This document shows positions 2,034-27,295 of a stretch of DNA of 64,000 nucleotides, in pieces. Location of the stretch: assembly GCA_000002445.1 (NCBI GenBank), contig CP000069.1, positions 160,001-224,000 on the forward strand, given 5' to 3'. Position 1 is the stretch's first letter; each line of letters begins with the position of its first letter. The notes beneath the pieces were generated by a model that was given only the letters and a program-made list of their open reading frames with translations, ran no database searches and was not told the DNA's origin. This stretch comes from Trypanosoma brucei. Its lineage: Eukaryota. The position numbers were made by a program, and so were the translations under genes.

Positions 2034-2261
2034 TCCTTGCAGGAAAGAAGCAGCAACGCACATGAAATACATATACGTGTTTGTGTGACACCATTACCTA
2101 CCAGCGTGTCGGTTGTCCCTTTCTATCATTTGCTCGCAATTTACAGTGACATCATAAACGAGTCGCCTCTTGCTACCTTGACGTGCCTTCATTGCTTTTT
2201 AAGCATTGTTTTGGTTTTGTCGGGAACTTGTTATAGCATCCAACTGTCTGGAAGTGTAATC

Positions 2262-7224: not shown

Positions 7225-10200
7225 CCATGCGTGAATTACATGCTAGAGATGGCGTAGTCACTTACGTAGTGTTTTTCTATGTTACTACAGCTGCTGGCTG
7301 AAGTATAGCTTGCAAATGGATTATTATGGGTAAGGGTATGCAACATGTTATACAGTGACAAGATCTCAGCAAAGGTATGTGATCCTATTATTGCAGGTTT
7401 CAACGCATCTATTACCAACGGGAAGTCGCTTCCGTGTGTCAGTGTGGCAGTTGCATATGTTCCGTCTCTGGATGACTTTGGATACGCCATCTGTACAACC
7501 AATTACGGTGATGAGTTTGCTATTATACTGGAATCTGTGGGTGACAAAAATACTCTCAACTTAACCAAATATTTCAATGAAAAGAATGCGTAGTTGATTT
7601 CTTACCTTTCACAGGATTCAGTAGGGTACACAGTTGGAATCCCAATTTATACCTCCTGGAAGCACCACTCGCCGTTGAGATGCTTGCTCTTTTCCGTTAT
7701 GCTATCACTCAGTTACGGTCACACCGACTGGATTTCATGTATTTGAAAGATGTTTCTTATGGTGATGATGAGTATAAGCTTGCTGCGTAGTTGGCAACAC
7801 GGATGAATCGCAAGTTGTTTAGTTGTTATTTTTTTGCATTGAAGAGTCAACTTGATAAGGAATCGGATAACAGGAGCTTCAGTGCGGAGTGTAATAAGGT
7901 TGCCGATACTGGACCTCAGGGAATGATTGTATTTGGTTCTCCAATCCCTGATATGAAGAGATTCCCCATGAAATGATTATATGACCACAGGACAAGAGGC
8001 GAATATTTATTCATACACCCTCTGCACTCCAACACGCCATCAAGAACAAGTGGGCATATAAATTGGGTAGAGACGAGTTTGTGGCTGCTAAGATAATAAT
8101 AACTGGGGCTGACCTAATTACGAAGGGTGACACATACAAAGCTGTCAGGCGTTTCAGAGATGATATGACTATGTTGTTAAAGGTTAATGGTAATAACTAT
8201 AAGCGCACAAGGTGGGATATTAACGAAAATAACTTCACCGAGCAAGACGCTGAAGCTGAGCTGACATTGAACAGATGGGTTGCTGGAGAGGTATTGAAAC
8301 AGGCACTGAGTTGTCACGAATAGCTAACTAGCAGGGGTGTATTTATGAAATCACTGTACAATAAACGTCGTTATCCAATTGATAATATTGTGGTTGGTGA
8401 CTTTGGTGGTGAGTGCCGTAATAAGGCGGGAGAGCGGGGTGTATCGTGTTTACGTAACCAAGGTGGGAGTGTGATGTGCGTGAAGAAGGTGGAAAAGGAT
8501 CTCCATCTGCACCCTATGAAGGAAGCTATATTAACCCTTGGTTCATCTCGCTGTTATCGAGACCTGCCACAGTTGTAGGGCCCATTGAGTGGGGTCATGT
8601 TTAATATAACCGATGACCCAAAGGCACTGCGTACTGCATAGATGGTATACGATGGTGTCCCTCATGTTGTTGGCAAAGGTCAGCTGGGTCACTCTGATAG
8701 TTTCTTTTTACACTGACTATCCTCGAAATCTTACGAAACTTGTGCAACTCTGTATAATGATGTTGAGAAACGAGTTGTAACTGCTGTGCTTGGTGTCGTG
8801 GATAATTCGTTACTACGGACGAAGGGTATGGCATTCATCGATCCTATAATACTCACATCACAACCGAGTAACCCCAGAAGGAATGTGATCCACCTGTTAC
8901 CAACAAATGAGCAGCAGTTATTTATGATAGTTGAGCATATTATACAAAATGGTGCAGGAAGGATGCATTTCATTGTGTGTCGTGGTGGTGATACGAGAGG
9001 AATTAGGAATATGTTGCAAAAACACTTGACAACTTTAACACATCACTAAGCTTCTTTGTTGCGAGTGGTGAAGGTCCTATTTTGAGAGACAAGCTGTCAA
9101 CTGCATGTGAGGTATTGGTTGTAGGTCTTATCCCATATAATATCCCCATAATCCTCTTTCACCCTAACAAACACCGTAATGCGCACGTCTTCGTCCTGTT
9201 CTTCGATGATGCACCAATCCACGGCGAACTCGTGAGTGCCTTCCATGAAGAGCCATTTTCTAACCGCTTGCTATTCGCAACGAATCTGTCACATCGGAGG
9301 GATAAGATCACGGAGTCCAAAACAGTACGTGAGTTCCGCAAGATCGTGCAGAATGAGTCGAAGTGGAAGCCGTTGTCACTACTTGGGTCTGCCATCGCAT
9401 ACGCAATGGGAAGTGTCCTGCAATGTATGGGTCGTTTGGAGACAAGTGTACGAACGAAACTTGACTTGAGGCGAAGCACTGTTGTCAACTGTGGTGCGAT
9501 GCATATTTTTGTATGGTCGATGTCACATGTTCTAAACCCTTTTGTGTCCTCTGCGCTGTCGTCTGCCACACTGTCAGTGACCTATGATGAACCGAGATGG
9601 ATCCAACAGATAACTGAGCAAATTGCCGCTATTGCAGTTGGCTTCGTCGTAATCTTGGTGCCGCTTGTTACGGTTCTTGTGGTTGTTATATTAGCAACAC
9701 ACCGGAATGCTCGTGATAACAATCTTGCACCCAAGGAACAAACTGACCCCGTGACACTAATATTTACTGACATTGAGAGCAGCACTGCGTTGTGGGCTGC
9801 ACACCCTGAACTGATGCCTGTTGCCGTTGCAACACATCACTATTTGATTCGTTCACTGATTGGGAGGTATAAGTGCTACGAAGTCAAAACTGTAGGGGAT
9901 TCGTTCATGATAGCGAGTAAGAGTCCTTTCGCTGCCGTCCAACTCGCACAGGAACTACAGCTGTGTTTCTTGCAGCATGACTGGGGAACAAATGCAGTTG
10001 ATGATTCCTACTGGGAATTTGAGCAGCAGCGTGCGGAGGAGGACGAGAAGTACACACCGCCAACTGCGCGGTTGGACCTCAAAGTGTACAGTCGTTTGTG
10101 GAATGGCCTGCGTGTACGTGTTGGAATTCACACCGGGTTGTGCGATATCCGACACGATGAAGTGACGAAGGGATATGACTACTATGGGCGGACTCCAAAC

Positions 10201-12105
10201 ATGGCAGCAAGGACGGAGAGTGTAGCAAATGGTGGTCAGGTGCTGATAACGCATGAGGTTTACATGTCATTTTCAGCTGAGGAGCGTGAGCAAATTGATG
10301 TCACTGCACTTGGTGATGTTGCACTTCGTGGCGTGAATGATCATGTGGAAATGTACCAGTTGAATGCCGTGCCTGGTCGCAACTTTGCTGCATTACGGCT
10401 GGAACGTGAACTCTTTGATGAAGACGAGGATGGCACGACAACCTCCACCAGCGACCACAGTTCTTCACGTGCGGAGCTGAGTGAATCAGCACAATCGATA
10501 TTGAACTCACTGCAGTCTGTTTTCCGAACTTTTAAAGCAGCGCAACGGGGGAGTCTTCTGGCGTCGCTTTGTGAGCGTTGGCGTGTGCCTCTTCCCCGTG
10601 AAGCTGCATTCGAGTGGGATGACGCCTACTGTGAGGAAGTGGTGCGTCGCATTGCAGTTAAGGTTGGGCGTGTCGCTGACCGTAGCGCTCAAAGTGGAAG
10701 CAGTGAAGCTTCTGTGAGTACTGAAGAGGGCTCAATCATAATTGTTCCATTCGTTGGTTCACATTTCAGAGAAGGCCACTTTGGGTGTTCGCTTCCGTCG
10801 TTACATTAGTGGTAGTGTTGCACGTCATAAAGCGTACAAATCTCTTAGTTTTACTCGGCGGAAAAGTTAATTAGCATACCGATTGTAGTAGTTGTTAGTG
10901 AATTTTAACGTAGTCTCGGTAGGGTTTGTCTTTTGTATCTATTTTTATCTTTTGCCATCTATTTATTATTACATTTTTTACATTCTATTTTTGGTGGCTG
11001 CTGCCTCTGCATTAAAGCACATACTAATCTTAAGAGGGAACATGCCCTCTGTTAGATTACACATGCGTTGTCTTTCAAGACACTGAATTAACACATGCAT
11101 GTGTTTTGCCGTGTCAGCGCCGGTTGGTTTCTTACTGTTCCAAATCCGACACTTATGGAAGACAGGACGGCTCAACATTTCTTCTAATTTAACCAAAACG
11201 TTTTTGTTCTGTGAGTAATCACAAAATGGGATTAGCTATGTACTTTCCCTAAGGGCTCTCTTTTTTATTTGTGTCCTTGCCATTTGAGGCTTTAAGAAAA
11301 GTAAGGTGAAACATTTCTTTTTCAACACGTCTGTCCTTAAGCGTGCGAGTGCATGACTATTTTTTTTAAACATTCCACCTCTCACGCCCAATCCCGCAGC
11401 CTTTCGGGTACAAAACTGTGTTTCCGTGTGTGTCTGCGTCACGTTTTTCTTTTTGAATCCACTTAATGCTAGCGGTGTCTTTAAATATTTTTTCATAATG
11501 AGTGTTATGTTGCATGTGTGTATGTATGTGTTGGGTGTTATGTGGGCTGTTGTATCTCTCTCTTCGGATATACAACCCTTATCACCCTCTGCATTGATGT
11601 TACATGTTGTTTCACCAGTTGCATGCTTTTTTCCCCTTCACTCATTTGTGTTGCCGTAAGGATTTAAGGTATGCGATTGCCTCCATTCCCTCCAGAGTGT
11701 GATGTCGATGCATGGGCTTAGTTATGCACTGAAACCCGCGTTGCCTCGCAGTATAACAAAGTTCCTTCACCATCACAGTTATTGCAGCTTATACTAATTA
11801 TAGTATTGTGAGGGAGTTTTGTAACACGTTCACTCTGTTAATATTGCTGAGCCTATAATATCCTTCTGTTATTTACAACACTGTTTGGACACCCGAGGGG
11901 AGTGCAGAAATGCCGCTCCTTTATAGGGACAAACCTCATTTATCCGTATTTTGTGGTAATTCAAGACTGAACCCTTGACGTTTTAACTGTGTGATGAGGA
12001 GCTACGACGAGTTGTGGCGGGAGGGAGCGTCTACGTCGCTGCAGTGTGTAACCTCAACTGAGCATTTGGCATAACCTCTACATGCTTCCCTTTACATCAT
12101 GTGTG
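7225..12105. repeat. left arm of a large inverted repeat, about 4.88 kb; the partner arm is 22411-27295
   Basis: Every ORF in 7236-11659 has a mirror copy on the opposite strand with coordinate sum about 34516-34520 (7236..7502(-) vs 27018..27284(+); 9082..10809(+) vs 23707..25434(-); 11426..11659(+) vs 22854..23090(-)). Similarity is lost left of about 7225 (vs 27295) and right of about 12105 (vs 22411). Confidence 0.85.
7340..10809 (+). pseudogene. GRESAG4/ESAG4 adenylate cyclase pseudogene. The N-terminal domain is fragmented over at least 4 frames. The C-terminal TM plus catalytic region survives as an intact 575-aa ORF at 9082..10809.
   Basis: Consecutive ORFs in different frames align in order to the N-terminal domain of copy 1: 7345..7593 (IIAGFNASIT ~ INAGFDASLS), 7620-7760 (LAVEMLALFRYAITQLR ~ NAELLALIRYAVVYLR), 8063..8323 (WVAGEVLKQAL ~ WLAGEVLFQAL), 8345..8578 (YNKRRYPIDNIVVGDFGGEC ~ YKQRRYVIDDLVVGDFGGEC) and 8786..9049 (RRNVIHLLP). 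The 9082..10809 ORF is then about 95% identical to the copy-1 catalytic domain. No signal peptide or 5' end is present. Confidence 0.8.
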
Positions 12106-13398
12106 TTTGCGTGCATGGGCTCTGATTGTTACTTGCGCATATCTGCCGCCCTCACTTGGGGCTTTTCCCCCCATGCAGGAGTGTACGCACTGGCAGCCGC
12201 TTTGGAGTATCAAAAATACTGCTACGTGCTGAAGATATTATTTGGGAAGGGAACAAATGGAGGGAAAGACTGTCGACCTTCAGGGGGAAAGGATAAACTC
12301 ACCTGAATCGCAGCGGAACTCGTGCGGCTGCAGGCATCCAACCTTTTTCCCTCAAGGGCAATTGTTATCCCTGAGCGGGTTGTTTTATTAATTTTCCAGC
12401 CCTGTATGGCCGGAGTGCGTGTGGTCGCGATGTTTATGTAACTCCTTTTGTTACATCACTTTCCTTCTTTTGTAAACCCCCGTAGTCGCCGGACGCCTCG
12501 TGCCGCATGCGGGCCCGATTAATTTTTTGGTTTGGGAATGAGATTGGAGGTACAAACTCTGATGAGGTCCACTGGCTGATCGCTGCTGCGTTGCTTAGAT
12601 GCGTTTTTATTATTCCTTACTTCTTTCCAACGCTACGTGGAGAAGGTGTGGTGACGGTGGCAGCAACTGTTGGAAGTGCGAAAAAGAGGGCTCAATCATT
12701 TCAAAGTGGAAAGGGGCCCATTACCCGGAATTGAAAACTCATCTGATCGCGAACGGCGTTTGGGTTGCGACCAGGAAATGAAATTTGTGTTACGGTCCAA
12801 ATACGAAACTTGTTGGGTGGACCCAAGGAAAGAAATAAAATGGATAAATACATGCTCTCTGCTGCATGAGACCCGGAATATGAGGAAAATGGTGCGAATG
12901 GATGTGGAGGGTGTGTCTAACCGGATGAGTGAGTGACGACGCAACAACACGAAGATGAATGAAGGAAAAGGGAGGAGTGACAATGCATCCCAAAAGGCAG
13001 ATGATTGATGTCATAAGAGGGGACCAAGTGTTTCCGCATGATTGCGGCGTCTGCAAGTAAAGTAGGGTACAAAGGAGAAAAAAAAAGAGAAAGCGGAACT
13101 GGATGAGATTCGGTTCTTCCGTCGCGCATGTTCTTACGCCCTTCTTCCACTGCATGTGCTATGCGACATTCGTGCCCGAGGGGAAACTTTTCCCGTCTGC
13201 AAAGCGCCTTTAAGAAGTATATGAGAGGAACAACCAGCCAAGCAGCCACACAAAAGGCGAAGGACACAACAGAAATTATTAAGAGCCGAGACGCATTAGC
13301 CGAGGTAGACGCTGGCGGAAGCAAAACAACAAACAAGTGACTGCGGCACTGAAATAAGAAACAATCCAAACTCTTGCCCCACATCACACTTAAATACT
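11366..13398 (+). repeat. GRESAG4-array spacer repeat, copy R2
   Basis: R2 is colinear with 1-2033 and begins 556 bp after the pseudogene stop. It diverges from R1 at 13399 (R1 runs into the GRESAG4 5' region, R2 runs into A/G-rich sequence). That divergence marks an array breakpoint. Confidence 0.75.
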
Positions 13399-14485
13399 TC
13401 CTTGCGAAAAAGAAGAAAAGAGGGAAAAACAATGCGCGTAATAACAAATGATAAGTGAGCGCATGTCTTGTGACAATCATGTGGTGGCTGCTGCAGATGG
13501 GGAGCCAACAGCAGAGAACCAAATGAAAGCAAGTATCCTCTACAAAATGGAGGACAGATGAAAAGGGTTATGTGGTTAAGGGGATTCAACAAAATAAACT
13601 AAAAGGGTCAACTATACATGAGCAAATGCAGCCACACAAACACACATGGAGCATGCGATGTGAAGTTAACTGTTTGGTTGTGCCTGGTTGAGGCGTACAA
13701 ACAATTTTTTTTGTTTTTCTGAATTTTTGTTCTCTGCTTTTTCTTGCTTGTCTGCGGGTGGAAGCGTAGTGTAGGGGCTGAGAAGCAGCTAAGCCAACAG
13801 CCCCGGTGCGAGATGTGACGCAGAGAAACTGGTAGCACGCCGTTTCATCGTCAGTTATAGAGTAATCCAGGGGAGAAAAAAGCGAAACGCGCCAAGAGCA
13901 CCGCCGAGAAGCAAAGAAAAAAGAAGGAAGGGGAAAACATTCCGCAGGGGTCGATTTCCATTCTTTCGTTTCCTCCCTCATTTCCTCGCTTCTGTCTGAG
14001 TAACCAAAACACGTGGGAGGAAGTTTGCACACCTGTGCGTTTCCTTTCTATCTGTTTTTCTCTTAAAAGAAAAAAAAAACAGGAATACACCTCTTATCCA
14101 AACTCGTTCTCCATTCCATTCCATTCCATTCCAGTGCCATGCGCACAAGCGCCCGTGAGAAAAGCGGGGTGCGGAACTCGGTGGACAAAGAAGTTAGCAA
14201 CGAAACAAAAGGGGGAAAATAGCGTGCAAAGGGAGAAAGTAAAAAAAAATTATGTGCAAACGAAGGGGGAGGAGAAACAGAAAACAATATCGTTGGTGTT
14301 ATGACTCACATCGCAATAAACGATGTCCGCACAACGTCACATCCTTTCCTTACAAATCCACTCAAGGAAAAGGAGTGGGGGGGGGGAAAGAAAGGAAAAC
14401 ATGGTTGCGCCAAGACAAAGCGTGGAAGGATGCATATATTTCCCACCTTCCCTGAGCAACTCATCCTTTCGTAGCCTTCATTCCA
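13399..14485. other. convergent strand-switch region (+ strand unit ends; - strand unit ends)
   Basis: All recognisable genes to the left are on the + strand. All from 14486 to 27295 are on the - strand. The interval is A/G-rich low-complexity sequence with poly-A runs, (CATTC)4 at 14106-14127 and a G10 tract at 14377-14386. No tRNA-like sequence was seen. Confidence 0.5.
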
Positions 14486-15343
14486 TTACATAATCGAGCA
14501 TCCCGCATTTTTTCCTCCAGCGCCTTCCCCATACTCAAGATCATCTCTATAACTTTTATCTGCGTTCCTTTCAACCGAACCCACGGCAGCAGTTGGCTTT
14601 ATTTTGTGCCGCTTGAGGAGATGCCCTTCAAATGCGTCAGTTGCGGGGAACTGCTCGCGGCACACCGGGCAACGGAATAGCACGGGGTTGGGGACACACA
14701 CAAAGAGAGAATCGGGATGCTCCGCGGCAAAGTGGTCGTAGAGCAACCCGCTGGCAGTGAAGCCCTTGCGGCACACCGGGCAGCAAAGAAGTCTTCCGGC
14801 CGCATCAGGCGCCTCAACTATTACCGGGGAGGTTTGCTTCAATTTCTTCTGCAACTCCTCCCGTAACTGCCGCGCCTCCTCGACCTCAGTGCGCAGAATC
14901 GACTGGTGCAACGTTTCGCGCGCGCGTTCCACTTCGGCCTTCAGTCGCCGCACCTCCGCTTCAAAATCAACAGGTTTATCCATTTTTGCTTCCTCCTTTC
15001 TTGCCGCCCCCTTTTTGGACTCATCTTTCTTTGGCGCGTTCGTTTTCCCCACACGTGTCTTCGATTCCGCTCCTTTCGACGCCTCGCCCCTCCGTGTTGC
15101 AACTCCTTTTCGTTCAGTTCGTGTTGGCGACGCATCCTTTGGATCATTTTTTCTCTGCCCATCGTTTCCCCCTAATTTGGGACTTCTTGCCTCTCCTTCC
15201 CCTGGTCCGTCTTGCCTTTGGTTCTCCGCTTCCACCCTTGGCGCTCTCCGCTCCCGTGCCGGCTTGATGCCTTCCCTCGTCTGAGAAGTGCCCTTTTCAG
15301 CATCTTGGAGGGAAATAATCGGCGATACGGCTTGAATCGTCAT
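14486..15343 (-). CDS. hypothetical zinc-finger protein. It has a basic low-complexity N-terminal half, a coiled-coil segment and two C2H2-like fingers (CPVCRKGFTASGLLYDHFAAEH and CPVCREQFPATDAFEGHLLKRH).
   Basis: A 285-aa ORF. The two CxxC...H...H units are about 30 aa apart. A charged KAEVERARETLHQ...EEARQLREELQKK heptad-like stretch precedes them. Confidence 0.5.
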   Translation of the reverse strand: MTIQAVSPIISLQDAEKGTSQTREGIKPARERRAPRVEAENQRQDGPGEGEARSPKLGGNDGQRKNDPKDASPTRTERKGVATRRGEASKGAESKTRVGKTNAPKKDESKKGAARKEEAKMDKPVDFEAEVRRLKAEVERARETLHQSILRTEVEEARQLREELQKKLKQTSPVIVEAPDAAGRLLCCPVCRKGFTASGLLYDHFAAEHPDSLFVCVPNPVLFRCPVCREQFPATDAFEGHLLKRHKIKPTAAVGSVERNADKSYRDDLEYGEGAGGKNAGCSIM

Positions 15344-15684: not shown

Positions 15685-16914
15685 TCACGAAGCCACTACA
15701 TGCGTCACGAAGAAGTCTGACTTGTGCGAGGCATTGAAAAGGACGACGGCGTTCATTACAGGAAACGGAGAGGGTGGTTTCCGTGTGCCCTGAGGGTGCA
15801 GTGGAGGTTGACACTGCGCCAGCAATCTTTTCCCCTTTTGAACGAACTCCATTGGGACAAGTTGTTTATTGTTGCTGTACCTGTCCAGCATCCGCGCGTA
15901 ATCTTCCTCACTGACCCCATGAATAACAACGAAGTTGTTCCGTAGCGGTGTATCGCACTGCTTTCTGTCTATAGCATGGAAGCGACAACATGTCTCAACA
16001 ACGATTGTCACGCTGTCGTCGGTTGCGAGAGAGAGAACGCGTCCGACCATGATGTCTTCATTTTCCATTCGAAAAAGGGTAAGGTTCCTCCGCAGGCGCC
16101 AACTGTACGGTTTCCTAATGAGCGGCCATATCGGCTCGTACGCCACCAACATTTTGGCCATGTCCTTTGAAAGCGTGTATGGTAAGCCGGATGCAACGTA
16201 GTAAGGATCCCCGAGAAAGTTAAGTCAGATATTTCCCCAATAAACGTTCTGACACGGTAACTTGTGCAAGTCAACAAGGTATTGATGCGCATGAACAAAC
16301 GCGTCATCATCACCTTTTGCCACCTAGTTCACACGGGGTAGTAGTCGGACAGCGAGATCATACCACAGGAACACTTTGCGGCTCATAGTGACTTCCGCTT
16401 TTATACCCCGTGTACCGCCATCCCCAATTTTCTTGTTCCGTCCAGGAACACCCTCATTAATTGGAAGCGTAACCATATCCTGCCAACGCAACGCCTCCTC
16501 CTTTAGTTCCGCCGTGTACGTGTGACCGTTACGATGGGGTCGATCAGTGAGGTACAATACAAGCATCTCCCCCGTGAAGTTGTTGCTCTTCTTTGCTACA
16601 ACGTCATGGATCCAGCAAGACGTGTGAAGAATGCGCCGCCTCCGCCTCACACTCGTGTCAGGTGACAGAATACCAAGTGCAACAAGATAGTTCCGCTCCC
16701 TCCATGTTTCCACCACATCAGACGCCACGAACTGCAGGGTTTCCTCTTCGTCATCGGGGAGGACGGGGGAGGAGGGAAAACGTAATGTTTTCCTATGACA
16801 AAACTGTTTTCCCGATGTCCACGGCACACTAACAACATCGCGGTGTAAGGAAACACACGCAGCGATAAGCATCACTAGGTAGAGGGGAAGTAGCATCGTT
16901 ACCACACGACGCAC
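15685..16914 (-). pseudogene. beta-1,3-glycosyltransferase-like gene (trypanosome UDP-Gal/GlcNAc-dependent GT family) interrupted by in-frame stops
   Basis: ORFs 16324..16914 (196 aa, N-terminal TM anchor MLLPLYLVMLIAACV) and 15685..16161 (158 aa) share one reading frame. The frame totals about 410 codons, a typical GT size. My manual translation of 16162-16323 finds a TAG at 16324-16326 and a TGA at 16225-16227. The distal part carries B3GT-like motifs: YTLSKDMAKMLV (~YVLSRDLA) and ENEDIMVGRVL (~EDVYVG). Confidence 0.45.
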
Positions 16915-19706
16915 ATTAGTTCATTTTATTCCTCTCATTTCTTCGTGGCCAGCGAAGGAAAAAAAAAAAACGACAACGCCATGGAAAAACAGTAATGAGT
17001 CCATGCCAAAAACGTCGCGCCTCCCCAGGAGAACACGAGAGGACGTCCCGTGCCACGCACGCGCACGAAAAAACAAACAAACAAACGGTAATATGCACTC
17101 TTGTAGGGAAGTGAAATGAATATGCTCCCACACTTCTGCTAGAATCAGAATGACTATACCTACCGCTCCAACTCCGGCCGTATGGGTGAAGATGGCTCGG
17201 TTAACATACTCACGTGGATGGTTCACCAAACTTTCAGTCCCCCCCCCCCAGCAGCACAATTCGAAGTGTGTAGCAACCATTGCTATTGTAAGCGCGAATG
17301 TCTTTCATGCTGAACTGTTGACAGGCGGCATTCCATCCAGTTGTCAATATTCCCCCGTTAAATGGCCATAAAAAGGCATAATGCGCGACCCCTCCCAGTA
17401 ACTATCATGTGATCCCACCCGCCAGCGGGGCCCGCGAGCACATAGGGACCACCACTGGATTATTACATGTATCATTTCCCCACTGGACGCAGTGGAATCG
17501 GCGCCGGATGCCATGTCCATGCCCTAAAGGGAGTTTCCTCCTGAACATGAATTGTTCGACGGATGGAATGCTGAAAGAGTTTGGGGGGAATACCTTGTTT
17601 GAGAGTCTGTAGTACATGAGGGTGTGGCAGATGGTTTCGTCCCATTTTTCACTGTTTTTGGAGAAGGTGGATGTTCGATGCGCATATCGCCGGTGGATAG
17701 CACTCCGCTGTGTGGCATTGAACTGCACCACTTTAAAATGCGGTACGTGATGCGATCCGCCTGCTGTGTTGATAAATGCAGTCGCAAAGTCAAGGGTATG
17801 CTCAGTGGTTGTTCAATACGGCCGGATCTTGGAAAAGGAACTCAGAGCAACCACACACCATATAAGGACCCCTTTTTGCACCTACGCCGCTGCCATCTCA
17901 TCGCTGAGACGCTGGAGGTGGAGAATTAGCGGGCCGCAGCGCTGGAGTGCCCGCTCTCGAGCGGCATCGTGGCAGCGGACCACAAAATTACTACGATGTT
18001 ACTCTCATTTCTGTGAGAACACAATGTAGACGTAACACGCTCCCCCAGCCCACCAACTACGACACTCTCAAGTCTTGGGGCAATCTCCACAAAATGCGTA
18101 GCGAAAGCAGCGGAGAGCAGTCACCGCTTTTTGATTCTTCAAAACAGATGCATGGACTGAAGAAAAGCTGCACCAAAGTCCTGTTCTGCGCGCAACTTAC
18201 GTGGTGGAAGGCATAAATTGGCACAACAAACGCACGGAAAGTAGTATGAGCACTTCGTTTTTTCTGACTGTGCCGAATGAGGAGACATCGCATGGTGCAA
18301 ACACCGGAGAGAATAAACGGGGAAAATGTTAAGACAGCACAACAGTGACCGAGCACAGTGTTCAGAGTAAACCGTCCCGTTCGTACGTTCTGAAATTCCC
18401 GCACAAAGCGCCGTCACTGTTGCTGCTGCATATCGTAGTTGTAGTTATAAAAAATACCAAACCTGACATGCGGCGAAGTGCTCCCACATAGCCCACCAAA
18501 GCTCCTGTTTCTTCTGGCACTTCGTTCCGAAGTTGCCCTATCAGCGTACTCCGCTGAAAAATATTGTCCGTAACACAATTTTCCGAAAGGAACTGCGACA
18601 GCATATGCCGCCGAGAACACCGACAACCAGGACTACGAATGGCATTTTGCTGCGCCTGGGAAACGCGTTCTACAGCGGGAACAGCAACGTGCCGCGACGC
18701 TGCTGACTTCAAACCGTCTGGTGAACGTAACCCCTTTGAACTAACAGGCACATATCGACGCAGGTAAAGCGCTGACAACATCCGAGCATCCGATCTATTG
18801 ACATTCTATCTCTTTGCTTAAGTTACAATCAACGAGGTGGACAGTTTACAACAATAACAATGAACTATCCTTTCAACTCATGTATAGTGCTTGGTCAATT
18901 GCCTTCACTTGGTCCTTTCCACGATCTGTACCGGACCCAGCAACACACAACGGTACAAGCGGATATTTTCAATCCGTAAAGACAGTGACACTACCAGTAA
19001 TACGTGTCAGCAATATACCTGTCTTTGCACCCGCGTTACATTCCACAGTTCAAACCGTCCCAGTTTGCTGTTGTTTTCCATATATCACAGCGCCCTGCAG
19101 CAGGGCAGTGAAGAGAACGACCATCCGTGCGAAGCCGCATGCCGTCATGCTTATCTCAGTGCCCATTGTTAGTATTACTTGCTTGTCAGTCTATGGGTCG
19201 CGCGTGAAAGAAAACAGGTTAGGAAGAGTAAGCACAAAACAAGGTGAACAAGGAAGATGATCACATCGCAATTGACCTGCATTGTAGAAACACCGCCCCG
19301 TTAAAATACGCGGAGAGTGATGAAGATATTGATCTGCTACACGAAATAGAACGCTACAAGGGAAAAGCAAAAACAGAGGAAAACACGATGCGCGGAAGCG
19401 GCCTCATTCACACGTCCAATGGAGCTCTGAACAGGGTGCGCAATTCCGCAATACCCCTGAGGGAGGGGAAATAAATAGGAATAGAGGAACAAATGGTTTT
19501 ATAACTGACACTTAATAGGCTCTCACTTAGCATCTTAGAGGAAATGGATGTTCATAAAATCGCTCACATAAAAAAAAGATAAAACGAAAATAAAACGATT
19601 AGTGGAAGTTGTTCTACTAGTTGCGTGTTATGGGCCAAACGAGTATCTACCCGTATCTTGTTATGGCTTATATGAGTAACACTGCACAGCCGGTAGGCCG
19701 CACAAG

Positions 19707-20657
19707 TCAGCACACAATTGCGAGGGAAAAAAAGACGATGAGTAGACACAATTCACCACCTACACAGATCGTAATGTGCGACAAGGAAGTCAATGTCGTC
19801 TCCGCCTCTCCTTTTGGTTTGGGAGTTGCCGAAGGTTGATCTTGAGAATTTGTAGACTCCTCATCTGAATGCAAACTTTCGTTGATTACTGCTAGCTCCT
19901 CATTGGCAGTGGAGTTTCCATTACCTGGAACGGGATGCGATGGCTGTGGAACTGTAACTTCGCAGAGGGCAGCGAAATAAGTTAGTGACTTGTATCCAGG
20001 TGCCTTACCCCCGGGCTTGTTGCCAGAAACTTCGCCGCCATCAAACCAACCGAACCACTTCGTCACGTTAGTGTACCAACCCATCACGTGCAATTGGCCA
20101 TCCTGAGGATAACTTTGCGCAAAAAACGACGGATAACCACCCAATGCGCCTGAACCACTTTTATAAGTGTACGATCCCCGCCAGAATGCAACGCCGTTGC
20201 CCTCTATTCCCGATGCTTCAAACAGACCACTGTTCCATCGGTAGACGCAATTAAGGGAAGTATCGTAGTCTCCTGCTGTGCAACGAATTCCCGCGTCCTG
20301 TGCCGCACTTGCACTGTAAGTGGCATCCCCTCCAAGGTAACTGTAGATAAATGGGCCATCAGCTACACCCAAGTGGTAGGCAGTGAGGCGTTCGTTAGTT
20401 GCCTGCGAGTGGTCAGTGGCCAGCGTCCCGCCGGCTTCACGGCAGATATGCACTGAGTTACTGTAGTCTACAAGGTAATCACCTCCATGCCAAAACTTTC
20501 GGTTGGGGAAAAGAATATACTCCTTGACATAGGCAGTTGGGTACACCTTACCAAATGCGAAGAGATGTGATGAACCTGAAAGACATTGCAGCAGGGCAGT
20601 GAAGAGAACGACCATCCGTGCGAAGCCGCATGCCGTCATGCTTATCTCAGTGCCCAT
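19707..20657 (-). CDS. secreted or GPI-anchored cysteine-containing protein with a C-type-lectin-like domain signature, copy 1
   Basis: A 316-aa ORF with an N-terminal signal peptide (MVVLFTALLQCLSGSS) and a C-terminal hydrophobic tail (ICVGGELCLLIVFFSLAIVC) after a Ser/Thr/Pro-rich acidic linker. The core shows CTLD-like landmarks: HICREAGGTLATDHSQATNERL (~C...G..LASI.S.EE..FL), WFGWFDGG (~W.W.DG) and a terminal YFAALCEV (~FVCE). Confidence 0.55.
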   Translation of the reverse strand: MGTEISMTACGFARMVVLFTALLQCLSGSSHLFAFGKVYPTAYVKEYILFPNRKFWHGGDYLVDYSNSVHICREAGGTLATDHSQATNERLTAYHLGVADGPFIYSYLGGDATYSASAAQDAGIRCTAGDYDTSLNCVYRWNSGLFEASGIEGNGVAFWRGSYTYKSGSGALGGYPSFFAQSYPQDGQLHVMGWYTNVTKWFGWFDGGEVSGNKPGGKAPGYKSLTYFAALCEVTVPQPSHPVPGNGNSTANEELAVINESLHSDEESTNSQDQPSATPKPKGEAETTLTSLSHITICVGGELCLLIVFFSLAIVC

Positions 20658-21197
20658 TGTTAGTATTACTTGCTTGTCAGTCTATGGGCCGCGCGTGAAA
20701 GAAAACAGGTTAGGAAGAGTAAGCACAAAACAAGGTGAACAAGGAAGATGATCACATCGCAATTGACCTGCATTGTAGAAACACCGCCCCGTTAAAATAC
20801 GCGGAGAGTGATGAAGATATTGATCTGCTACACGAAATAGAACGCTACAAGGGAAAAGCAAAAACAGAGGAAAACACGATGCGCGGAAGCGGCCTCATTC
20901 ACACGTCCAATGGAGCTCTGAACAGGGTGCGCAATTCCGCAATACCCCTGAGGGAGGGGAAATAAATAGGAATAGAGGAACAAATGGTTTTATAACTGAC
21001 ACTTAATAGGCTCTCACTTAGCATCTTAGAGGAAATGGATGTTCATAAAATCGCTCACATAAAAAAAAGATAAAACGAAAATAAAACGATTAGTGGAAGT
21101 TGTTCTACTAGTTGCGTGTTATGGGCCAAACGAGTATCTACCCGTATCTTGTTATGGCTTATATGAGTAACACTGCACAGCCGGTAGGCCGCACAAG

Positions 21198-22148
21198 TCA
21201 GCACACAATTGCGAGGGAAAAAAAGACGATGAGTAGACACAATTCACCACCTACACAGATCGTAATGTGCGACAAGGAAGTCAATGTCGTCTCCGCCTCT
21301 CCTTTTGGTTTGGGAGTTGCCGAAGGTTGATCTTGAGAATTTGTAGACTCCTCATCTGAATGCAAACTTTCGTTGATTACTGCTAGCTCCTCATTGGCAG
21401 TGGAGTTTCCATTACCTGGAACGGGATGCGATGGCTGTGGAACTGTAACTTCGCAGAGGGCAGCGAAATAAGTTAGTGACTTGTATCCAGGTGCCTTACC
21501 CCCGGGCTTGTTGCCAGAAACTTCGCCGCCATCAAACCAACCGAACCACTTCGTCACGTTAGTGTACCAACCCATCACGTGCAATTGGCCATCCTGAGGA
21601 TAACTTTGCGCAAAAAACGACGGATAACCACCCAATGCGCCTGAACCACTTTTATAAGTGTACGATCCCCGCCAGAATGCAACGCCGTTGCCCTCTATTC
21701 CCGATGCTTCAAACAGACCACTGTTCCATCGGTAGACGCAATTAAGGGAAGTATCGTAGTCTCCTGCTGTGCAACGAATTCCCGCGTCCTGTGCCGCACT
21801 TGCACTGTAAGTGGCATCCCCTCCAAGGTAACTGTAGATAAATGGGCCATCAGCTACACCCAAGTGGTAGGCAGTGAGGCGTTCGTTAGTTGCCTGCGAG
21901 TGGTCAGTGGCCAGCGTCCCGCCGGCTTCACGGCAGATATGCACTGAGTTACTGTAGTCTACAAGGTAATCACCTCCATGCCAAAACTTTCGGTTGGGGA
22001 AGAGAATATACTCCTTGACATAGGCAGTTGGGTACACCTTACCAAATGCGAAGAGATGTGATGAACCTGAAAGACATTGCAGCAGGGCAGTGAAGAGAAC
22101 GACCATCCGTGCGAAGCCGCATGCCGTCATGCTTATCTCAGTGCCCAT
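21198..22148 (-). CDS. secreted or GPI-anchored C-type-lectin-like protein, copy 2 (100% identical to copy 1)
   Basis: Identical 316-aa translation at offset 1491. Confidence 0.55.
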   Translation of the reverse strand: MGTEISMTACGFARMVVLFTALLQCLSGSSHLFAFGKVYPTAYVKEYILFPNRKFWHGGDYLVDYSNSVHICREAGGTLATDHSQATNERLTAYHLGVADGPFIYSYLGGDATYSASAAQDAGIRCTAGDYDTSLNCVYRWNSGLFEASGIEGNGVAFWRGSYTYKSGSGALGGYPSFFAQSYPQDGQLHVMGWYTNVTKWFGWFDGGEVSGNKPGGKAPGYKSLTYFAALCEVTVPQPSHPVPGNGNSTANEELAVINESLHSDEESTNSQDQPSATPKPKGEAETTLTSLSHITICVGGELCLLIVFFSLAIVC

Positions 22149-22410
22149 TGTTAGTATTACTTGCTTGTCAGTCTATGGGCCGCGCGTGAAAGAAAACAGG
22201 TTAGGAAGAGTAAGCACAAAACAAGGTGAACAAGGAAGATGATCACATCGCAATTGACCTGCATTGTAGAAACACCGCCCCGTTAAAATACGCGGAGAGT
22301 GATGAAGATATTGATCTGCTACACGAAATAGAACGCTACAAGGGAAAACATAGTTGGAAGGTGAGAGTGGCAGTAAATACTAAGAGCATGGAGAAAAAAC
22401 ACATAAAAAA

Positions 22411-25400
22411 ATATAATGTAAAGGGAAGCATGTAGAGGTTATGCCAAATGTTCAGTTGAGGTTACACACTGCAGCGACGTAGACGCTCCCTCCCGCCACA
22501 ACTCGTCGTAGCTCCTCATCGCACAGTTAAAACGTCAAGGGTTCAGTCTTGAATTACCACAAAATACGGATAAATGAGGTTTGTCCCTATAAAGGAGCGG
22601 CATTTCTGCACTCCCCTCGAGTGTCCAAACAGTGTTGTAAATAACAGAAGGATATTATAGGCTCAGCAATATTAACAGAGTGAACGTGTTACAAAACTCC
22701 CTCACAATACTATAATTAGTATAAGCTGCAATAACTGTGACTGTGAAGGAACTTTGTTATACTGCGAGGCAACGCGGGTTTCAGCACATAACTAAGCTCA
22801 TGCATCGACATCACACTCTGGAGGGAATGGAGGCAATCACATACCTTAAATCCTTACGGCAACACAAATGAGTGAAGGGAAAGAAAGCATGCAACTGGTG
22901 AAACAACATGTAACATCAGCAATGCAGAGGGTGATAAGGGTTGTATATCCGAAGAGAGAGATACAACAGCCCACATAACACCCAACACATACAAACACAC
23001 ATGCAACATAACACTCATTATGAAAAAATATTTAAAGACATCGCTAGCATTAAGTGGATTCAAAAAGAAAAACGTGACGCAGACACACACGGAAACACAG
23101 TTTTGTACCCGAAAGGCTGCGGGATTGGGCGTGAGAGGTGGAATGTTTAAAAAAAATAGTCATGCACTCGCACGCTTAAGGACAGACGTGTTGAAAAAGA
23201 AATGTTTCACCTTATTTTTCTTAAAGCCTCAAATGGCAAGGACAAAAATAAAAAAGAGAGCCCTTAGGGAAAGTACATAGCTAATCCCATTTTGTGATTA
23301 CTCACAGAACAAAAACGTTTTGGTTAAATTAGAAGAAATGTTGAGCCGTCCTGTCTTCCATAAGGGTCGGATTTGGAACAGTAAGAAACCAACCGGCGCT
23401 GACACGGCAAAACACATGCATGTGTTAATTCAGTGTCTTGAAAGACAACGCATGTGTAATCTAACAGAGGGCATGTTCCCTCTTAAGATTAGTATGTGCT
23501 TTAATGCAGAGGCAGCAGCCACCAAAAATAGAATGTAAAAAATGTAATAATAAATAGATGGCAAAAGATAAAAATAGATACAAAAGACAAACCCTACCGA
23601 GACTACGTTAAAATTCACTAACAACTACTACAATCGGTATGCTAATTAACTTTTCCGCCGAGTAAAACTAAGAGATTTGTACGCTTTATGACGTGCAACA
23701 GTACCACTAATGTAACGACGGAAGCGAACACCCAAAGTGGCCTTCTCTGAAATGTGAACCAACGAATGGAACAATTATGATTGAGCCCTCTTCAGTACTC
23801 ACAGAAGCTTCACTGCTTCCACTTTGAGCGCTACGGTCAGCGACACGCCCAACCTTAACTGCAATGCGACGCACCACTTCCTCACAGTAGGCGTCATCCC
23901 ACTCGAATGCAGCTTCACGGGGAAGAGGCACACGCCAACGCTCACAAAGCGACGCCAGAAGATTCCCCCGTTGCGCTGCTTTAAAAGTTCGGAAAACAGA
24001 CTGCAGTGAGTTCAATATCGATTGTGCTGATTCACTCAGCTCCGCACGTGAAGAACTGTGGTCGCTGGTGGAGGTTGTCGTGCCATCCTCGTCTTCATCA
24101 AAGAATTCGCGATCCAGCCGTAATGCAGCAAAGTTGCGGCCAGGCACGGCATTCAACTGGTACATTTCCACATGATCATTCACGCCACGAAGTGCAACAT
24201 CACCAAGTGCAGTGACATCAATTTGCTCACGCTCCTCAGCTGACAGTGACATGTAAACCTCATGCGTTATCAGCACCTGACCACCATTTGCTACACTCTC
24301 TGTCCTTGCTGCCATGTTTGGAGTGCGCCCATAGTAGTCATATCCCTTCGTCACTTCATCGTGTCGGATGTCGCACAACCCGGTGTGGATTCCAACACGT
24401 ACACGCAGGCCATTCCACAAACGACTGTACACTTTAGGGTCCAACCGCGCAGTTGGCGGTGTGTACTTCTCGTCCTCCTCCGCACGCTGCTGCTCAAATT
24501 CCCAGTAGGACTCATCAATCGCATTTGTTCCCCAGTCATGCTGCAAGAAACACAGCTGTAGTTCCTGTGCGAGTTGGACGGCAGCGAAAGGACTCTTACT
24601 CGCTATCATGAACGAATCCCCTACAGTCTTGACTTCGTAGCACTTATACCTCCCAATCAGTGAACGAATCAAATAGTGATGTGTTGCAACGGCAACAGGC
24701 ATCAGATCAGGGTGTGCAGCCCACAACGCAGTGCTGCTCTCAATGTCAGTAGATATTAGTGTCACGGGGTCAGTTGGTTCCTTGGGTGCAAGATTGTTAT
24801 CACGAGCATTCCGGTGTGTTGCTAATATAACAACCACAAGAACCGTAACAAGCGGCACCAACATTACGACGAAGCCAACTGCAATAGCGGCAATTTGCTC
24901 AGTTATCTGTTGGATCCATCTCGGTTCATCATAGGTCACTGACAGTGTGGCAGACGACAGCGCAGAGGACACAAAAGGGTTTAGAACATGTGACATCGAC
25001 CATACAAAAATATGCATCGCACCACAGTTGACAACAGTGCTTCGCCTCAAGTCAAGTTTCGTTCGTACACTTGTCTCCAAACGACCCATACATTGCAGGA
25101 CACTTCCCATTGCGTAAGCGATGGCAGACCCACGTAGTGACAATGGCTTCCACTTCGACTCATTCTGCACGATCTTGCGGAACTCACGTACTGTTTTGGA
25201 CTCCGTGATCTTATCCCTCCGATGTGACAGATTCGTTGCGAATAGCAAGGGGTTAGAAAATGGCTCTTCATGGAAGGCATTCACGAGTTCGCCGTGGATT
25301 GGTGCATCATCGAAGAACAGGACGAAGACGTGCGCATTACGGTGCTTGTTAGGGTGAAAGAGGATTATGGAGATATTATATGGGATAAGACCTACAACCA

Positions 25401-27295
25401 ATACCTCACATGCAGTTGACAGCTTGTCTCTCAAAATAGGACCTTCACCACTCGCAACAAAGAAGCTTAGTGATGTGTTAAAGTTGTCAAGTGTTTTTGC
25501 AACATATTCCTAATTCCTCTCGTATCACCACCACGACACACAATGAAATGCATCCTTCCTGCACCATTTTGTATAATATGCTCAACTATCATAAATAACT
25601 GCTGCTCATTTGTTGGTAACAGGTGGATCACATTCCTTCTGGGGTTACTCGGTTGTGATGTGAGTATTATAGGATCGATGAATGCCATACCCTTCGTCCG
25701 TAGTAACGAATTATCCACGACACCAAGCACAGCAGTTACAACTCGTTTCTCAACATCATTATACAGAGTTGCAGAAGCTTCGTAAAATTTCGAGGATAGT
25801 CAGTGTAAAAAGAAACTATCAGAGACCCAGTTGACCTTTGCCAACAACATGAGGGACACCATCGTATACCATCTATGCAGTACGCAGTGCCTTTGGGTCA
25901 TCGGTTATATTAAACATGACCCCACTCAATGGGCCCTACAACTGTGGCAGGTCTCGATAACAGCGAGATGAACCAAGGGTTAATATAGCTTCCTTCATAG
26001 GGTGCAGATGGAGATCCTTTTCCACCTTCTTCACGCACATCACACTCCCACCTTGGTTACGTAAACACGATACACCCCGCTCTCCCGCCTTATTACGGCA
26101 CTCACCACCAAAGTCACCAACCACAATATTATCAATTGGATAACGACGTTTATTGTACAGTGATTTCATAAATACACCCCTGCTAGTTAGCTATTCGTGA
26201 CAACTCAGTGCCTGTTTCAATACCTCCCCAGCAACCCATCTGTTCAATGTCAGCTCAGCTTCAGCGTCTTGCTCGGTGAAGTTATTTTCGTTAATATCCC
26301 ACCTTGTGCGCTTATAGTTATTACCATTAACCTTTAACAACATAGTCATATCATCTCTGAAACGCCTGACAGCTTTGTATGTGTCACCCTTCGTAATTAG
26401 GTCAGCCCCAGTTATTATTATCTTAGCAGCCACAAACTCGTCTCTACCCAATTTATATGCCCACTTGTTCTTGATGGCGTGTTGGAGTGCAGAGGGTGTA
26501 TGAATAAATATTCGCCTCTTGTCCTGTGGTCATATAATCATTTCATGGGGAATCTCTTCATATCAGGGATTGGAGAACCAAATACAATCATTCCCTGAGG
26601 TCCAGTATCGGCAACCTTATTACACTCCGCACTGAAGCTCCTGTTATCCGATTCCTTATCAAGTTGACTCTTCAATGCAAAAAAAAAAAAATAACAACTA
26701 AACAACTTGCGATTCATCCGTGTTGCCAACTACGCAGCAAGCTTATACTCATCATCACCATAAGAAACATCTTTCAAATACATGAAATCCAGTCGGTGTG
26801 ACCGTAACTGAGTGATAGCATAACGGAAAAGAGCAAGCATCTCAACGGCGAGTGGTGCTTCCAGGAGGTATAAATTGGGATTCCAACTGTGTACCCTACT
26901 GAATCCTGTGAAAGGTAAGAAATCAACTACGCATTCTTTTCATTGAAATATTTGGTTAAGTTGAGAGTATTTTTGTCACCCACAGATTCCAGTATAATAG
27001 CAAACTCATCACCGTAATTGGTTGTACAGATGGCGTATCCAAAGTCATCCAGAGACGGAACATATGCAACTGCCACACTGACACACGGAAGCGACTTCCC
27101 GTTGGTAATAGATGCGTTGAAACCTGCAATAATAGGATCACATACCTTTGCTGAGATCTTGTCACTGTATAACATGTTGCATACCCTTACCCATAATAAT
27201 CCATTTGCAAGCTATACTTCAGCCAGCAGCTGTAGTAACATAGAAAAACACTACGTAAGTGACTACGCCATCTCTAGCATGTAATTCACGCATGG
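22411..27295. repeat. right arm of the large inverted repeat. It contains an inverted partial R spacer at 22411-23150.
   Basis: Reverse complement of 7225-12105. For example 22423-22450 'ggaagcatgtagaggttatgccaaatg' is the reverse complement of 12078-12105. The lectin tandem array abuts it at about 22350-22411. Confidence 0.85.
23707..27176 (-). pseudogene. GRESAG4/ESAG4 adenylate cyclase pseudogene, inverted duplicate of 7340-10809
   Basis: ORF 23707..25434 (575 aa) differs from 9082..10809 at only about 12 residues. The upstream fragment ORFs (25467..25730, 25936..26169, 26191..26451, 26927..27175) mirror the left-arm fragments exactly. Confidence 0.8.

What the first reader, a model, noticed from the sequence alone, without database searches (positions are those of the whole stretch)
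7225..27295. Palindromic segmental duplication: 4.9-kb inverted arms carrying GRESAG4 pseudogenes bracket a 10.3-kb gene block
Arms 7225-12105 and 22411-27295 are about 98-99% identical in inverted orientation. The 575-aa translations differ at about 12 residues. Each arm carries a degenerate GRESAG4 copy plus the start of the array spacer R. The enclosed 12106-22410 holds unrelated genes (zinc finger, GT pseudogene, lectin tandem). The high identity implies a recent duplication-inversion or ongoing gene conversion. This geometry permits flip-flop inversion of the central block by homologous recombination, or hairpin/cruciform formation. Inversion would swap which genes lie next to the divergent start region at 27296-30662.
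Basis: seen in the sequence. Interest (0 to 1): 0.65.

Follow-up and report, generated by a model that had tools for sequence, protein, structure and literature searches.

The report
Trypanosome palindrome kept alike by gene conversion
Two 4.9-kb inverted copies of a dead adenylate-cyclase (GRESAG4) gene really do bracket a 10.3-kb gene block on Trypanosoma brucei chromosome 6; the structure is old and kept similar by copying between the arms, and nothing shows that it flips or has a function, so it is a fairly ordinary genome feature.

Summary
Arms 7225-12105 (+) and 22408-27295 (inverted) differ by 56 substitutions in 4,884 aligned bases (98.9%; 98.6% with indels). The outer edge is sharp, and no homology continues beyond either edge.

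The window is T. b. brucei TREU927 chromosome 6, 160,001-224,000. The arms are frameshifted GRESAG4 pseudogenes. They bracket a convergent strand-switch region, the zinc-finger gene Tb927.6.350, a glycosyltransferase pseudogene and two IGP34 genes.

The same palindrome, with the same junctions and orientation, is in T. equiperdum IVM-t1. Its right half is in T. b. gambiense DAL972. So the duplication is not recent.

In a five-arm alignment, 26 independent events are private variants shared by both TREU927 arms, and 5 are shared by both IVM-t1 arms. Only 1 event follows left/right orthology. That is concerted evolution by repeated gene conversion between the arms. A third, direct partial copy at 1-743 joins the mosaic.

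Every assembly examined has the same central orientation. With a 10.3-kb spacer a cruciform is implausible.

The enclosed convergent region is the published siRNA locus CTU20, a weak source (420 reads). I rate this a new member of a known kind, of modest interest.

The parts
7225..12105 (+). Left arm (chr6:167,225-172,105). It holds a frameshifted GRESAG4 pseudogene (homology 7581-10779; longest ORF 9082-10809, 575 aa) plus a 1.3-kb 3' flank that includes the 450-bp GRESAG4-downstream element at 11386-11830. It is the last element of the + transcription unit Tb927.6.310->.340. The identification as Tb927.6.340 is inferred.
   Evidence: (Pfam Guanylate_cyc, Peripla_BP_A-cyclase)
22408..27295 (-). 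Right arm (chr6:182,408-187,295), the inverted copy. Its longest ORF is 23707-25434 (575 aa). It carries an extra 2-bp deletion, and so one more frameshift than the left arm. It is the first element of the - transcription unit Tb927.6.390->.360 and abuts the divergent strand-switch region. No protein accession lies between IGP34 and the M20 peptidase, so it carries no annotated protein (presumably treated as a pseudogene).
1..743 (+). Third, direct copy of the arm tail, cut by the window edge. It matches the right arm at 11522-11674 and the left arm at 11715-12129, a mosaic that indicates exchange among all three copies.
744..2050 (+). Direct copy of block X (12106-13415). It shows that arm+X is a repeated contiguous unit with 11,366-bp spacing.
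12106..14485 (.). Convergent strand-switch region: block X plus the spacer up to the zinc-finger gene. AT skew changes sign here. Together with the arm tail and the zinc-finger gene (11,400-15,100) it equals the published siRNA locus Tb927_06_v4_CTU20 (171,400-175,100).
14486..15343 (-). C2H2 zinc-finger protein Tb927.6.350 (exact match to AAZ11601).
15688..16920 (-). Fragmented beta-3 glycosyltransferase (hexosyltransferase) pseudogene.
   Evidence: Pfam negative
19096..22348 (-). IGP34 C-type-lectin tandem with a 1,491-bp period. There are two identical 316-aa genes (19707-20657 and 21198-22148; AAZ11602 and AAZ11603) plus a partial third unit that abuts the right arm's inner edge.
27296..30662 (.). 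Divergent strand-switch region between the right arm and the M20 peptidase Tb927.6.400. It is unique sequence with no homology to the left arm's outer flank.

Best explanation
This is an old inverted segmental duplication of a GRESAG4-pseudogene cassette: the coding region from about its start codon, plus 1.3 kb of 3' flank. It lies on T. b. brucei TREU927 chromosome 6. One copy ends the + polycistronic unit (Tb927.6.310->.340). The other begins the facing - unit (Tb927.6.390->.360). Together they bracket a convergent strand-switch region and the zinc-finger, GT-pseudogene and IGP34 genes.

The arms stay 98.9% alike because homologous recombination repeatedly copies patches from one arm to the other without crossing over. 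A third direct copy and, in the conserved cyclase domain, other GRESAG4 paralogues also take part.

Shown here: the structure, its age, and the concerted evolution. Inferred: that the structure is a neutral by-product of GRESAG4 family turnover with no dedicated function, and that inversion of the centre is possible but rare or absent.

Identity of the locus:
- Six window ORFs tested (five distinct proteins) are exact TREU927 chromosome 6 proteins.
- The window offset is exactly 160,000. EP procyclin stops at 51,392 and 58,799, plus 298-nt UTRs, give the published poly(A) sites 211,690 and 219,097.
- The published transcription units match the strands of the ORFs.

Pseudogene status:
- Two frameshifts are shared by both TREU927 arms and the gambiense arm.
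- The right arm has a further private 2-bp deletion.
- Each arm has 9 private changes relative to the paralogues.

Age:
- The same arms, junctions and orientation occur in IVM-t1 with no Ns.
- The right arm, IGP34 and the zinc-finger gene are contiguous in DAL972.
- T. equiperdum OVI contigs carry the junctions at 27295 and 22408 and stop inside the arms, as short-read contigs do at repeats.

Concerted evolution:
- In the four-arm alignment, 49 sites group arms by strain, 3 by arm and 5 are crossed.
- In the five-arm alignment, after collapsing clustered columns, there are 26 events private to both TREU927 arms, 5 private to both IVM-t1 arms and 1 orthology event.
- Within TREU927 the arms differ by 1.15%. 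Between strains the arms differ by 2.1-3.0%, and the adjacent unique flanks differ by 1.65-3.9%.
- The outer 1,062 bp has no substitution between the TREU927 arms (max-gap P about 1e-4), yet differs at 23-26 sites from the other strains' arms.
- The third copy is a mosaic of the two arms.

Precedent:
- Concerted evolution and ectopic conversion, including an opposite-strand duplicate of ISG75, are documented for T. brucei gene families (PMC1855330).
Against: - The IVM-t1 assembly rests on only 7,508 PacBio reads plus MiSeq. It was Pilon-polished, and its chromosomes were built against TREU927. Polishing with multi-mapping reads could falsely homogenise its arms, and the large-scale order is not fully independent.
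- This caveat touches only the 5 IVM-t1 events. It does not touch the 26 TREU927 events, which are read against three other arms including the Sanger-sequenced gambiense arm.
- The 1,062-bp identical outer tract in TREU927 could in principle be a local assembly collapse.
- dN/dS between the 575-aa ORFs is 0.35. That is not what a free-running pseudogene gives, although imported paralogue sequence would explain it and the numbers are small.
- 'No function' cannot be proven from sequence.
Confidence: 0.8

Rival explanations
1. Hairpin or double-stranded-RNA source. Transcription reading through the convergent region from either unit would copy one arm in sense and the other in antisense. The resulting long dsRNA would be diced by nuclear DCL2 into siRNAs that act on GRESAG4 transcripts or mark the termination zone. 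High arm identity would then be selected, as Tschudi et al. speculated for their seven inverted repeats.
For: - The convergent region inside the palindrome is the published locus CTU20 (171,400-175,100 = window 11,400-15,100). It has 420 siRNA reads on both strands in wild type, 2% of that in dcl2-/-, and 9.8 times more in dcl1-/-, the highest such ratio in the table.
- All seven long inverted repeats catalogued in TREU927 give siRNAs.
- The CTU20 interval begins about 700 bp inside the left arm.
Against: - CTU20 is a weak source: 420 reads, against 9,000-33,000 for the strongest convergent units.
- Every one of the 49 convergent regions gives siRNAs, palindrome or not.
- The survey that looked for inverted-repeat siRNA sources by self-BLAST did not list this pair.
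- No effect of such siRNAs on mRNA levels was found at the two convergent units tested.
- The two arms are normally transcribed in the same sense, so dsRNA needs more than 10 kb of read-through.
- No read-level data for the arms could be examined here.
Confidence: 0.1
2. Active flip-flop switch. Crossing-over between the arms inverts the 10.3-kb centre at a useful frequency. This moves the zinc-finger and IGP34 genes from the unit driven by the Tb927.6.390|.400 divergent region to the end of the Tb927.6.310->.340 unit.
For: - The geometry permits it.
- The arms do recombine.
- Either orientation would leave the central genes co-directional with a transcription unit (inference).
- Four 'crossed' sites (8683, 9266, 9996-7) could be the trace of a reciprocal exchange.
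Against: - The orientation is identical in TREU927, in IVM-t1 and in the right half of DAL972, although dozens of conversion events separate them.
- The inner 500 bp of the arms keeps a left/right orthology signal.
- No recombinase or short specific sites are involved.
- Four crossed sites are equally well explained by two conversion events.
Confidence: 0.05
3. Assembly artefact. One GRESAG4-pseudogene locus was placed twice, once inverted, in the reference.
For: - The outer 1,062 bp of the two arms has no substitution.
- Repeats of this size were hard to finish with Sanger reads.
- Short-read assemblies break at the arms.
Against: - There are 56 substitutions and 4 indels between the arms, including an arm-specific frameshift.
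- All four junctions have different unique flanks.
- Both arms are present in IVM-t1 with 120 differences.
- The right-arm junctions are present in DAL972 and OVI.
Confidence: 0.03

Closest known systems
Long inverted repeats IR1-IR7 of T. brucei TREU927 (Tschudi et al. 2012, PMC3447711)
   Same: Same genome. Kilobase-scale arms (422-10,011 bp there, 4.9 kb here). By my calculation from the spans and repeat lengths in their Table 3, the IR3, IR6 and IR7 spacers are about 2.6-9.3 kb, against 10.3 kb here. High arm identity in both cases, which the authors found puzzling and tentatively linked to hairpin formation or RNAi.
   Different: This pair is not in their list. Its identity is lower: 98.9% with 56 mismatches, against 99-100% with 0-14 mismatches. 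siRNA output from the arms themselves is unknown. Only the enclosed convergent region is catalogued, as CTU20.
Large palindromes kept alike by arm-to-arm gene conversion (primate sex-chromosome palindromes; own knowledge)
   Same: Inverted arms around a unique spacer. The structure is older than the lineages compared. Arms within a genome are more alike than orthologous arms between genomes.
   Different: The arms here carry a dead gene rather than functional multi-copy genes. They are 4.9 kb long, not tens to thousands of kb. Identity is 98.9%, not above 99.9%. A third direct copy and dispersed paralogues also donate sequence.
Concerted evolution and ectopic gene conversion in T. brucei gene families (Jackson 2007, PMC1855330; Jackson et al. 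2010, PMC2854126)
   Same: The same process and the same family. GRESAG4 arrays are among those analysed, and an opposite-strand segmental duplicate of ISG75 showed conversion.
   Different: Those studies treat tandem arrays and coding sequence. This inverted pair, which spans a strand-switch region and includes 1.3 kb of non-coding flank, is not described there. No paper in the searched library names Tb927.6.340 or Tb927.6.390.
Inverted repeats that seed linear amplicons in Leishmania (Ubeda et al. 2014; own knowledge, not checked here)
   Same: Kinetoplastid chromosomes carry dispersed inverted repeats that recombine.
   Different: No amplification is known or tested at this locus, and T. 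brucei is not known to use this route.

Membership tests
GRESAG4 receptor-type adenylate cyclase | Domain order: periplasmic-binding-protein-like ectodomains followed by a class III cyclase catalytic domain | tested here: met
   Pfam finds PF25493 and PF00211 in both 575-aa ORFs. tblastn aligns residues about 51-1239 of the neighbouring GRESAG4 ORF, as translated from its upstream GTG, along each arm.
GRESAG4 receptor-type adenylate cyclase | A single intact open reading frame of about 1,250 aa | tested here: not met
   The homology is split over three frames in the left arm and four segments in the right arm. The same two frameshifts are in the gambiense arm. No protein is annotated at the right arm. 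It is therefore a pseudogene.
T. brucei long inverted repeat class (Tschudi IR1-7) | Two arms of at least 400 bp in inverted orientation on one chromosome, a few kb apart | tested here: met
   Arms of 4.9 kb with a 10.3-kb spacer.
T. brucei long inverted repeat class (Tschudi IR1-7) | Arms essentially identical (99-100%, at most 14 mismatches) | tested here: not met
   56 substitutions and 4 indels; 98.9% counting substitutions only, 98.6% with gaps.
T. brucei long inverted repeat class (Tschudi IR1-7) | AGO1-bound siRNAs arise from the arms | not testable with these tools
   Only the published interval table is available. CTU20 overlaps the last 700 bp or so of the left arm and has 420 reads. 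There are no per-base data.
Palindrome maintained by arm-to-arm gene conversion | The structure predates the divergence of the lineages compared | tested here: met
   The same junction sequences and order are in IVM-t1. The right half is in DAL972. Two junctions are in OVI.
Palindrome maintained by arm-to-arm gene conversion | Arms within a genome share derived variants that are absent from orthologous arms | tested here: met
   26 plus 5 strain-private shared events against 1 orthology event. Divergence is 1.15% within TREU927 and 2.1-3.0% between strains.
Invertible DNA switch | Both orientations of the enclosed segment occur | tested here: not met
   Only one orientation appears in the three assemblies that span an arm. 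Population-level heterogeneity could not be tested.
Convergent-transcription siRNA locus (CTU) | It lies between two facing polycistronic units and yields DCL2-dependent small RNAs of both polarities | tested here: met
   Coordinates were mapped through an exact anchor onto CTU20. The units come from Kolev et al. Table S14. The small-RNA data are published, not re-analysed here.

The most novel reading that the evidence does not exclude
The palindrome is functional. Either (a) read-through across the convergent region folds the two arms into a 4.9-kb RNA hairpin that feeds DCL2 and helps silence GRESAG4-family transcripts or define transcription termination, and selection for that is why the arms are kept alike. 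Or (b) rare crossing-over flips the centre and so reassigns IGP34 and the zinc-finger gene between two transcription units with different distances from their start sites.
Probability: 0.07. Interest if true: 0.6.

Novelty: new member of a known kind. Interest (0 to 1): 0.3.

Why it matters
This adds an eighth long inverted repeat to the TREU927 reference, one that the only systematic survey did not list. It also gives a clean worked example of non-coding and pseudogene sequence on opposite strands of a trypanosome chromosome evolving in concert across a strand-switch region.

Practical consequences:
- Short reads and siRNA reads in chr6:167-172 kb and 182-187 kb are multi-mapping.
- SNP calls in those intervals are unreliable.
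- Short-read assemblies break there. OVI does, and the DAL972 chromosome 6 assembly starts inside the central block.

It does not open a long-standing question.

Tried and rejected
- I first guessed that the enclosed convergent region was the siRNA-rich pair CTU18/CTU19, because their counts are almost equal. Exact anchoring of the window showed they lie 40-70 kb upstream. The right unit is the weak CTU20.
- Exact-sequence look-ups of the zinc-finger, IGP34 and 575-aa ORFs found no contig, because the position index lacks the TREU927 chromosome. Cluster membership gave orthologues that could then be looked up.
A homology search settled it.
- There are no tRNA genes in the window.
- The convergent region has no notable internal repeats.
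- The second small-RNA paper and the 2026 pangenome preprint do not mention this locus.
- The assembly-artefact reading was considered and rejected (see rival explanations).
- Cruciform extrusion was rejected on spacer length. That rests on established knowledge, not on a computation here.
Full report

Yes. An ungapped repeat search finds four collinear inverted segments covering 7225-12113 and 22400-27295 at 97-100%. Gapped blastn joins them into one match: 7215-12108 against 27304-22405, 98.6% over 4,903 columns, with 56 mismatches and 4 gap openings.

A global alignment fixes the outer edge at exactly 7225|27295. Both arms start CCATGCGTGAATTAC after unrelated sequence. The inner edge decays over about ten bases near 12105|22408. 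Sensitive blastn finds nothing beyond either edge. A 4.9-kb match at this identity cannot be chance.

Two details need correcting:
- The 575-aa ORFs differ at 15 residues, not about 12.
- The family has a third member.

**2. Where is this?**

Six window ORFs were tested, giving five distinct proteins because the two IGP34 copies are identical. They are the zinc finger Tb927.6.350, the two IGP34 copies, the M20 peptidase, an LRR protein and GRESAG2. All are exact matches to T. b. brucei TREU927 chromosome 6 proteins with consecutive accession numbers. HpHbR is identical to the T. b. brucei receptor in PDB entry 4WJG.

The two EP procyclin ORFs end at window 51,392 and 58,799. Adding their 298-nt 3' UTRs and 160,000 gives 211,690 and 219,097. 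These are exactly the poly(A) sites published for Tb927.6.450 and Tb927.6.480. So the window is Tb927_06_v4:160,001-224,000, and the arms are chr6:167,225-172,105 and 182,408-187,295.

The published polycistronic units are Tb927.6.310->.340 (+).390->.360 (-) and .400->.440 (+) (Kolev et al. 2010, Table S14). These agree with the ORF strands and with the sign changes of AT skew near 12-13 kb and 26-27 kb.

It follows that:
- The left arm is the last element of a + unit.
- The right arm is the first element of the facing - unit.
- The palindrome encloses a convergent strand-switch region.
- The right arm's outer edge abuts a divergent strand-switch region.

**3. What is in the arms and the centre?**

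Each arm aligns to residues about 51-1239 of the neighbouring full-length GRESAG4 ORF, as translated from its upstream GTG. Identity is 29-34% in the ectodomain and 55-60% in the C-terminal half. The alignment is split over three frames.

The first aligned residue lies about 33 nt inside the arm. So the duplicated unit starts at about the ancestral start codon and runs through the coding region plus 1.3 kb of 3' flank. That flank includes a 450-bp element also found downstream of the GRESAG4 gene at 40172-43930.

The same two frameshifts occur in both TREU927 arms and in the T. b. gambiense right arm. The TREU927 right arm has a further private 2-bp deletion. No protein is annotated at the right arm. 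These are pseudogenes, and they were already dead before the lineages split.

The centre holds, in order:
- Block X.
- The zinc-finger gene Tb927.6.350.
- A fragmented hexosyltransferase pseudogene (E = 2e-61 to T. congolense PF01762 proteins; Pfam itself was negative).
- Two identical IGP34 genes plus a partial third unit that touches the right arm.

**4. Age and mode of evolution**

The zinc-finger and M20 orthologues led to other assemblies.

- *T. equiperdum* IVM-t1 (CM010677.1:91,123-127,178, no Ns) is collinear with window 4424-42095. It has one IGP34 unit fewer. It contains both arms, inverted, with the same junction sequences and 120 substitutions between them.
- *T. b. gambiense* DAL972 chromosome 6 begins inside the zinc-finger gene, so only the right arm is placed. 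The stretch from the zinc finger through IGP34 and the right arm to M20 is contiguous and in the same orientation.
- Two *T. equiperdum* OVI short-read contigs carry the junctions at 27295 and 22408 and stop 389 and 45 bases into the arm, as expected at a repeat.

The duplication is therefore older than these lineages.

In a four-arm alignment the informative sites split as follows: 49 'by strain' (both TREU927 arms against both IVM-t1 arms), 3 'by arm', and 5 crossed.

With the gambiense arm added, and runs of adjacent columns collapsed into single events, the counts are:

| Pattern | Sites | Events |
|---|---|---|
| Private variant shared by both TREU927 arms | 35 | 26 |
| Private variant shared by both IVM-t1 arms | 16 | 5 |
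| Right-arm type shared by IVM-t1 and gambiense, while both TREU927 arms carry the left-arm type | 28 | 12 |
| Pure left/right orthology | 2 | 1 |

Divergence figures point the same way:
- The TREU927 arms differ by 1.15%. Arms from different strains differ by 2.1-3.0%.
- The unique flanks next to the arms differ between strains by 1.65-3.9%.
- The outer 1,062 bp has no substitution between the TREU927 arms (max-gap P about 1e-4), yet differs at 23-26 sites from every other arm.
- The innermost 500 bp keeps a weak left/right signal.
- The third, direct copy matches the right arm at 11522-11674 and the left arm at 11715-12129.

Together this is the signature of repeated, patchy gene conversion among the copies. 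It is not the signature of a recent duplication.

In the conserved cyclase domain, the many singleton changes (especially in IVM-t1) and the 90-93% nucleotide patches shared with the canonical GRESAG4 genes point to additional input from dispersed paralogues. That input would also explain a dN/dS of 0.35 between two pseudogene copies.

**5. Caveats**

- IVM-t1 was assembled from only 7,508 PacBio reads plus MiSeq contigs. It was Pilon-polished, and its chromosomes were built against TREU927.
- Polishing could falsely homogenise its arms. That touches only the five IVM-t1 events. The 26 TREU927 events are read against three other arms, one of them Sanger-derived.
- A local collapse in the TREU927 outer tract cannot be excluded without reads.

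**6. What does it do?**

The best-supported reading is that it does nothing in particular. It is a relic of GRESAG4 family turnover that homologous recombination keeps partly homogenised. Concerted evolution and ectopic conversion, including between opposite-strand duplicates, are already documented for T. brucei families (PMC1855330; PMC2854126).

Three more interesting readings were weighed.

*(a) Hairpin RNA.*
- The enclosed convergent region is the catalogued siRNA locus CTU20. It has 420 AGO1-bound reads of both polarities in wild type, 2% of that in dcl2-/-, and 9.8-fold more in dcl1-/-.
- But all 49 convergent regions give siRNAs, and CTU20 is among the weaker ones.
- The survey that searched for inverted-repeat sources did not list this pair.
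- dsRNA from the arms would need more than 10 kb of read-through.

*(b) Flip-flop inversion.*
- The geometry allows it, and either orientation would keep the central genes co-directional with a transcription unit.
- But every assembly has the same orientation, even though dozens of conversion events separate them.

*(c) Cruciform DNA.*
- This is implausible with a 10.3-kb spacer (established knowledge).

An assembly artefact is excluded by the arm-specific differences and by the independent assemblies.

**7. Novelty and verdict**

- The pair is absent from the only systematic list of long inverted repeats in this genome.
- No paper in the searched library names Tb927.6.340 or Tb927.6.390.
- The kind of structure and the process that maintains it are both well known.
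- It is a new member of a known kind, of modest interest. Its main practical consequence is for read mapping and assembly in chr6:167-187 kb.

Noticed in passing
window 5737-7224, 27296-30662 versus 32091-39900: There is a steep gradient of between-strain diversity. TREU927 against IVM-t1 shows 3.9% substitutions in the left flank of the left arm and 2.2% in the divergent strand-switch region. It shows only 0.27% from the M20 gene to the next GRESAG4, and 0.2-0.35% in the zinc-finger and M20 coding sequences.
   Followed up: partly
window 12106-13415 and 744-2050: Block X is duplicated together with the arm tail. It carries a minus-strand ORF (12917-13522, 201 aa; a 155-aa gene is called at the same place in IVM-t1) with no Pfam match. 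Its second copy (1552-2094) lies antisense inside the + transcription unit.
   Followed up: partly
window 19096-22348: The IGP34 tandem (1,491-bp period) has two identical genes plus a partial unit in TREU927. It has one unit fewer in the IVM-t1, DAL972 and OVI assemblies. This agrees with the 1,462-bp chromosome 6 duplication listed for Tbg972.6.30 in the gambiense genome paper.
   Followed up: partly
window 8683, 9266, 9996-9997: At four sites the TREU927 left arm matches the IVM-t1 right arm, while the TREU927 right arm matches the IVM-t1 left arm and the gambiense right arm. This could be a reciprocal exchange (a double inversion) or two separate conversions. It is unresolved.
   Followed up: no
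window 49379-56593 and 56798-64000: A 7.4-kb direct repeat at 99.7% carries EP procyclin (51009-51392, 58428-58799), a 208-aa ORF and GRESAG2 (53253-54626, 60660-62033). This is the known procyclin-locus segmental duplication (Tb927.6.450-.520).
   Followed up: partly
Tschudi et al. supplementary tables; chr6 88.3-97.5 kb and 115-122 kb (outside the window): CTU18 and CTU19 have almost identical siRNA counts (9,102 and 9,011) and the same Dicer dependence. Published read-sharing groups tie GRESAG4 genes Tb927.6.170.280.300.310 and .330 together. This suggests further duplicated, possibly mirrored, GRESAG4 blocks upstream of this window.
   Followed up: no
L006/L009 (IVM-t1), arm positions equivalent to window 9700-10800: The IVM-t1 arms carry many private changes in the cyclase catalytic region. 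The right arm there is 86-97% identical in protein to the canonical GRESAG4, but the frame changes about every 50 residues. This is either ectopic conversion plus long-read indel errors, or a polishing artefact.
   Followed up: no
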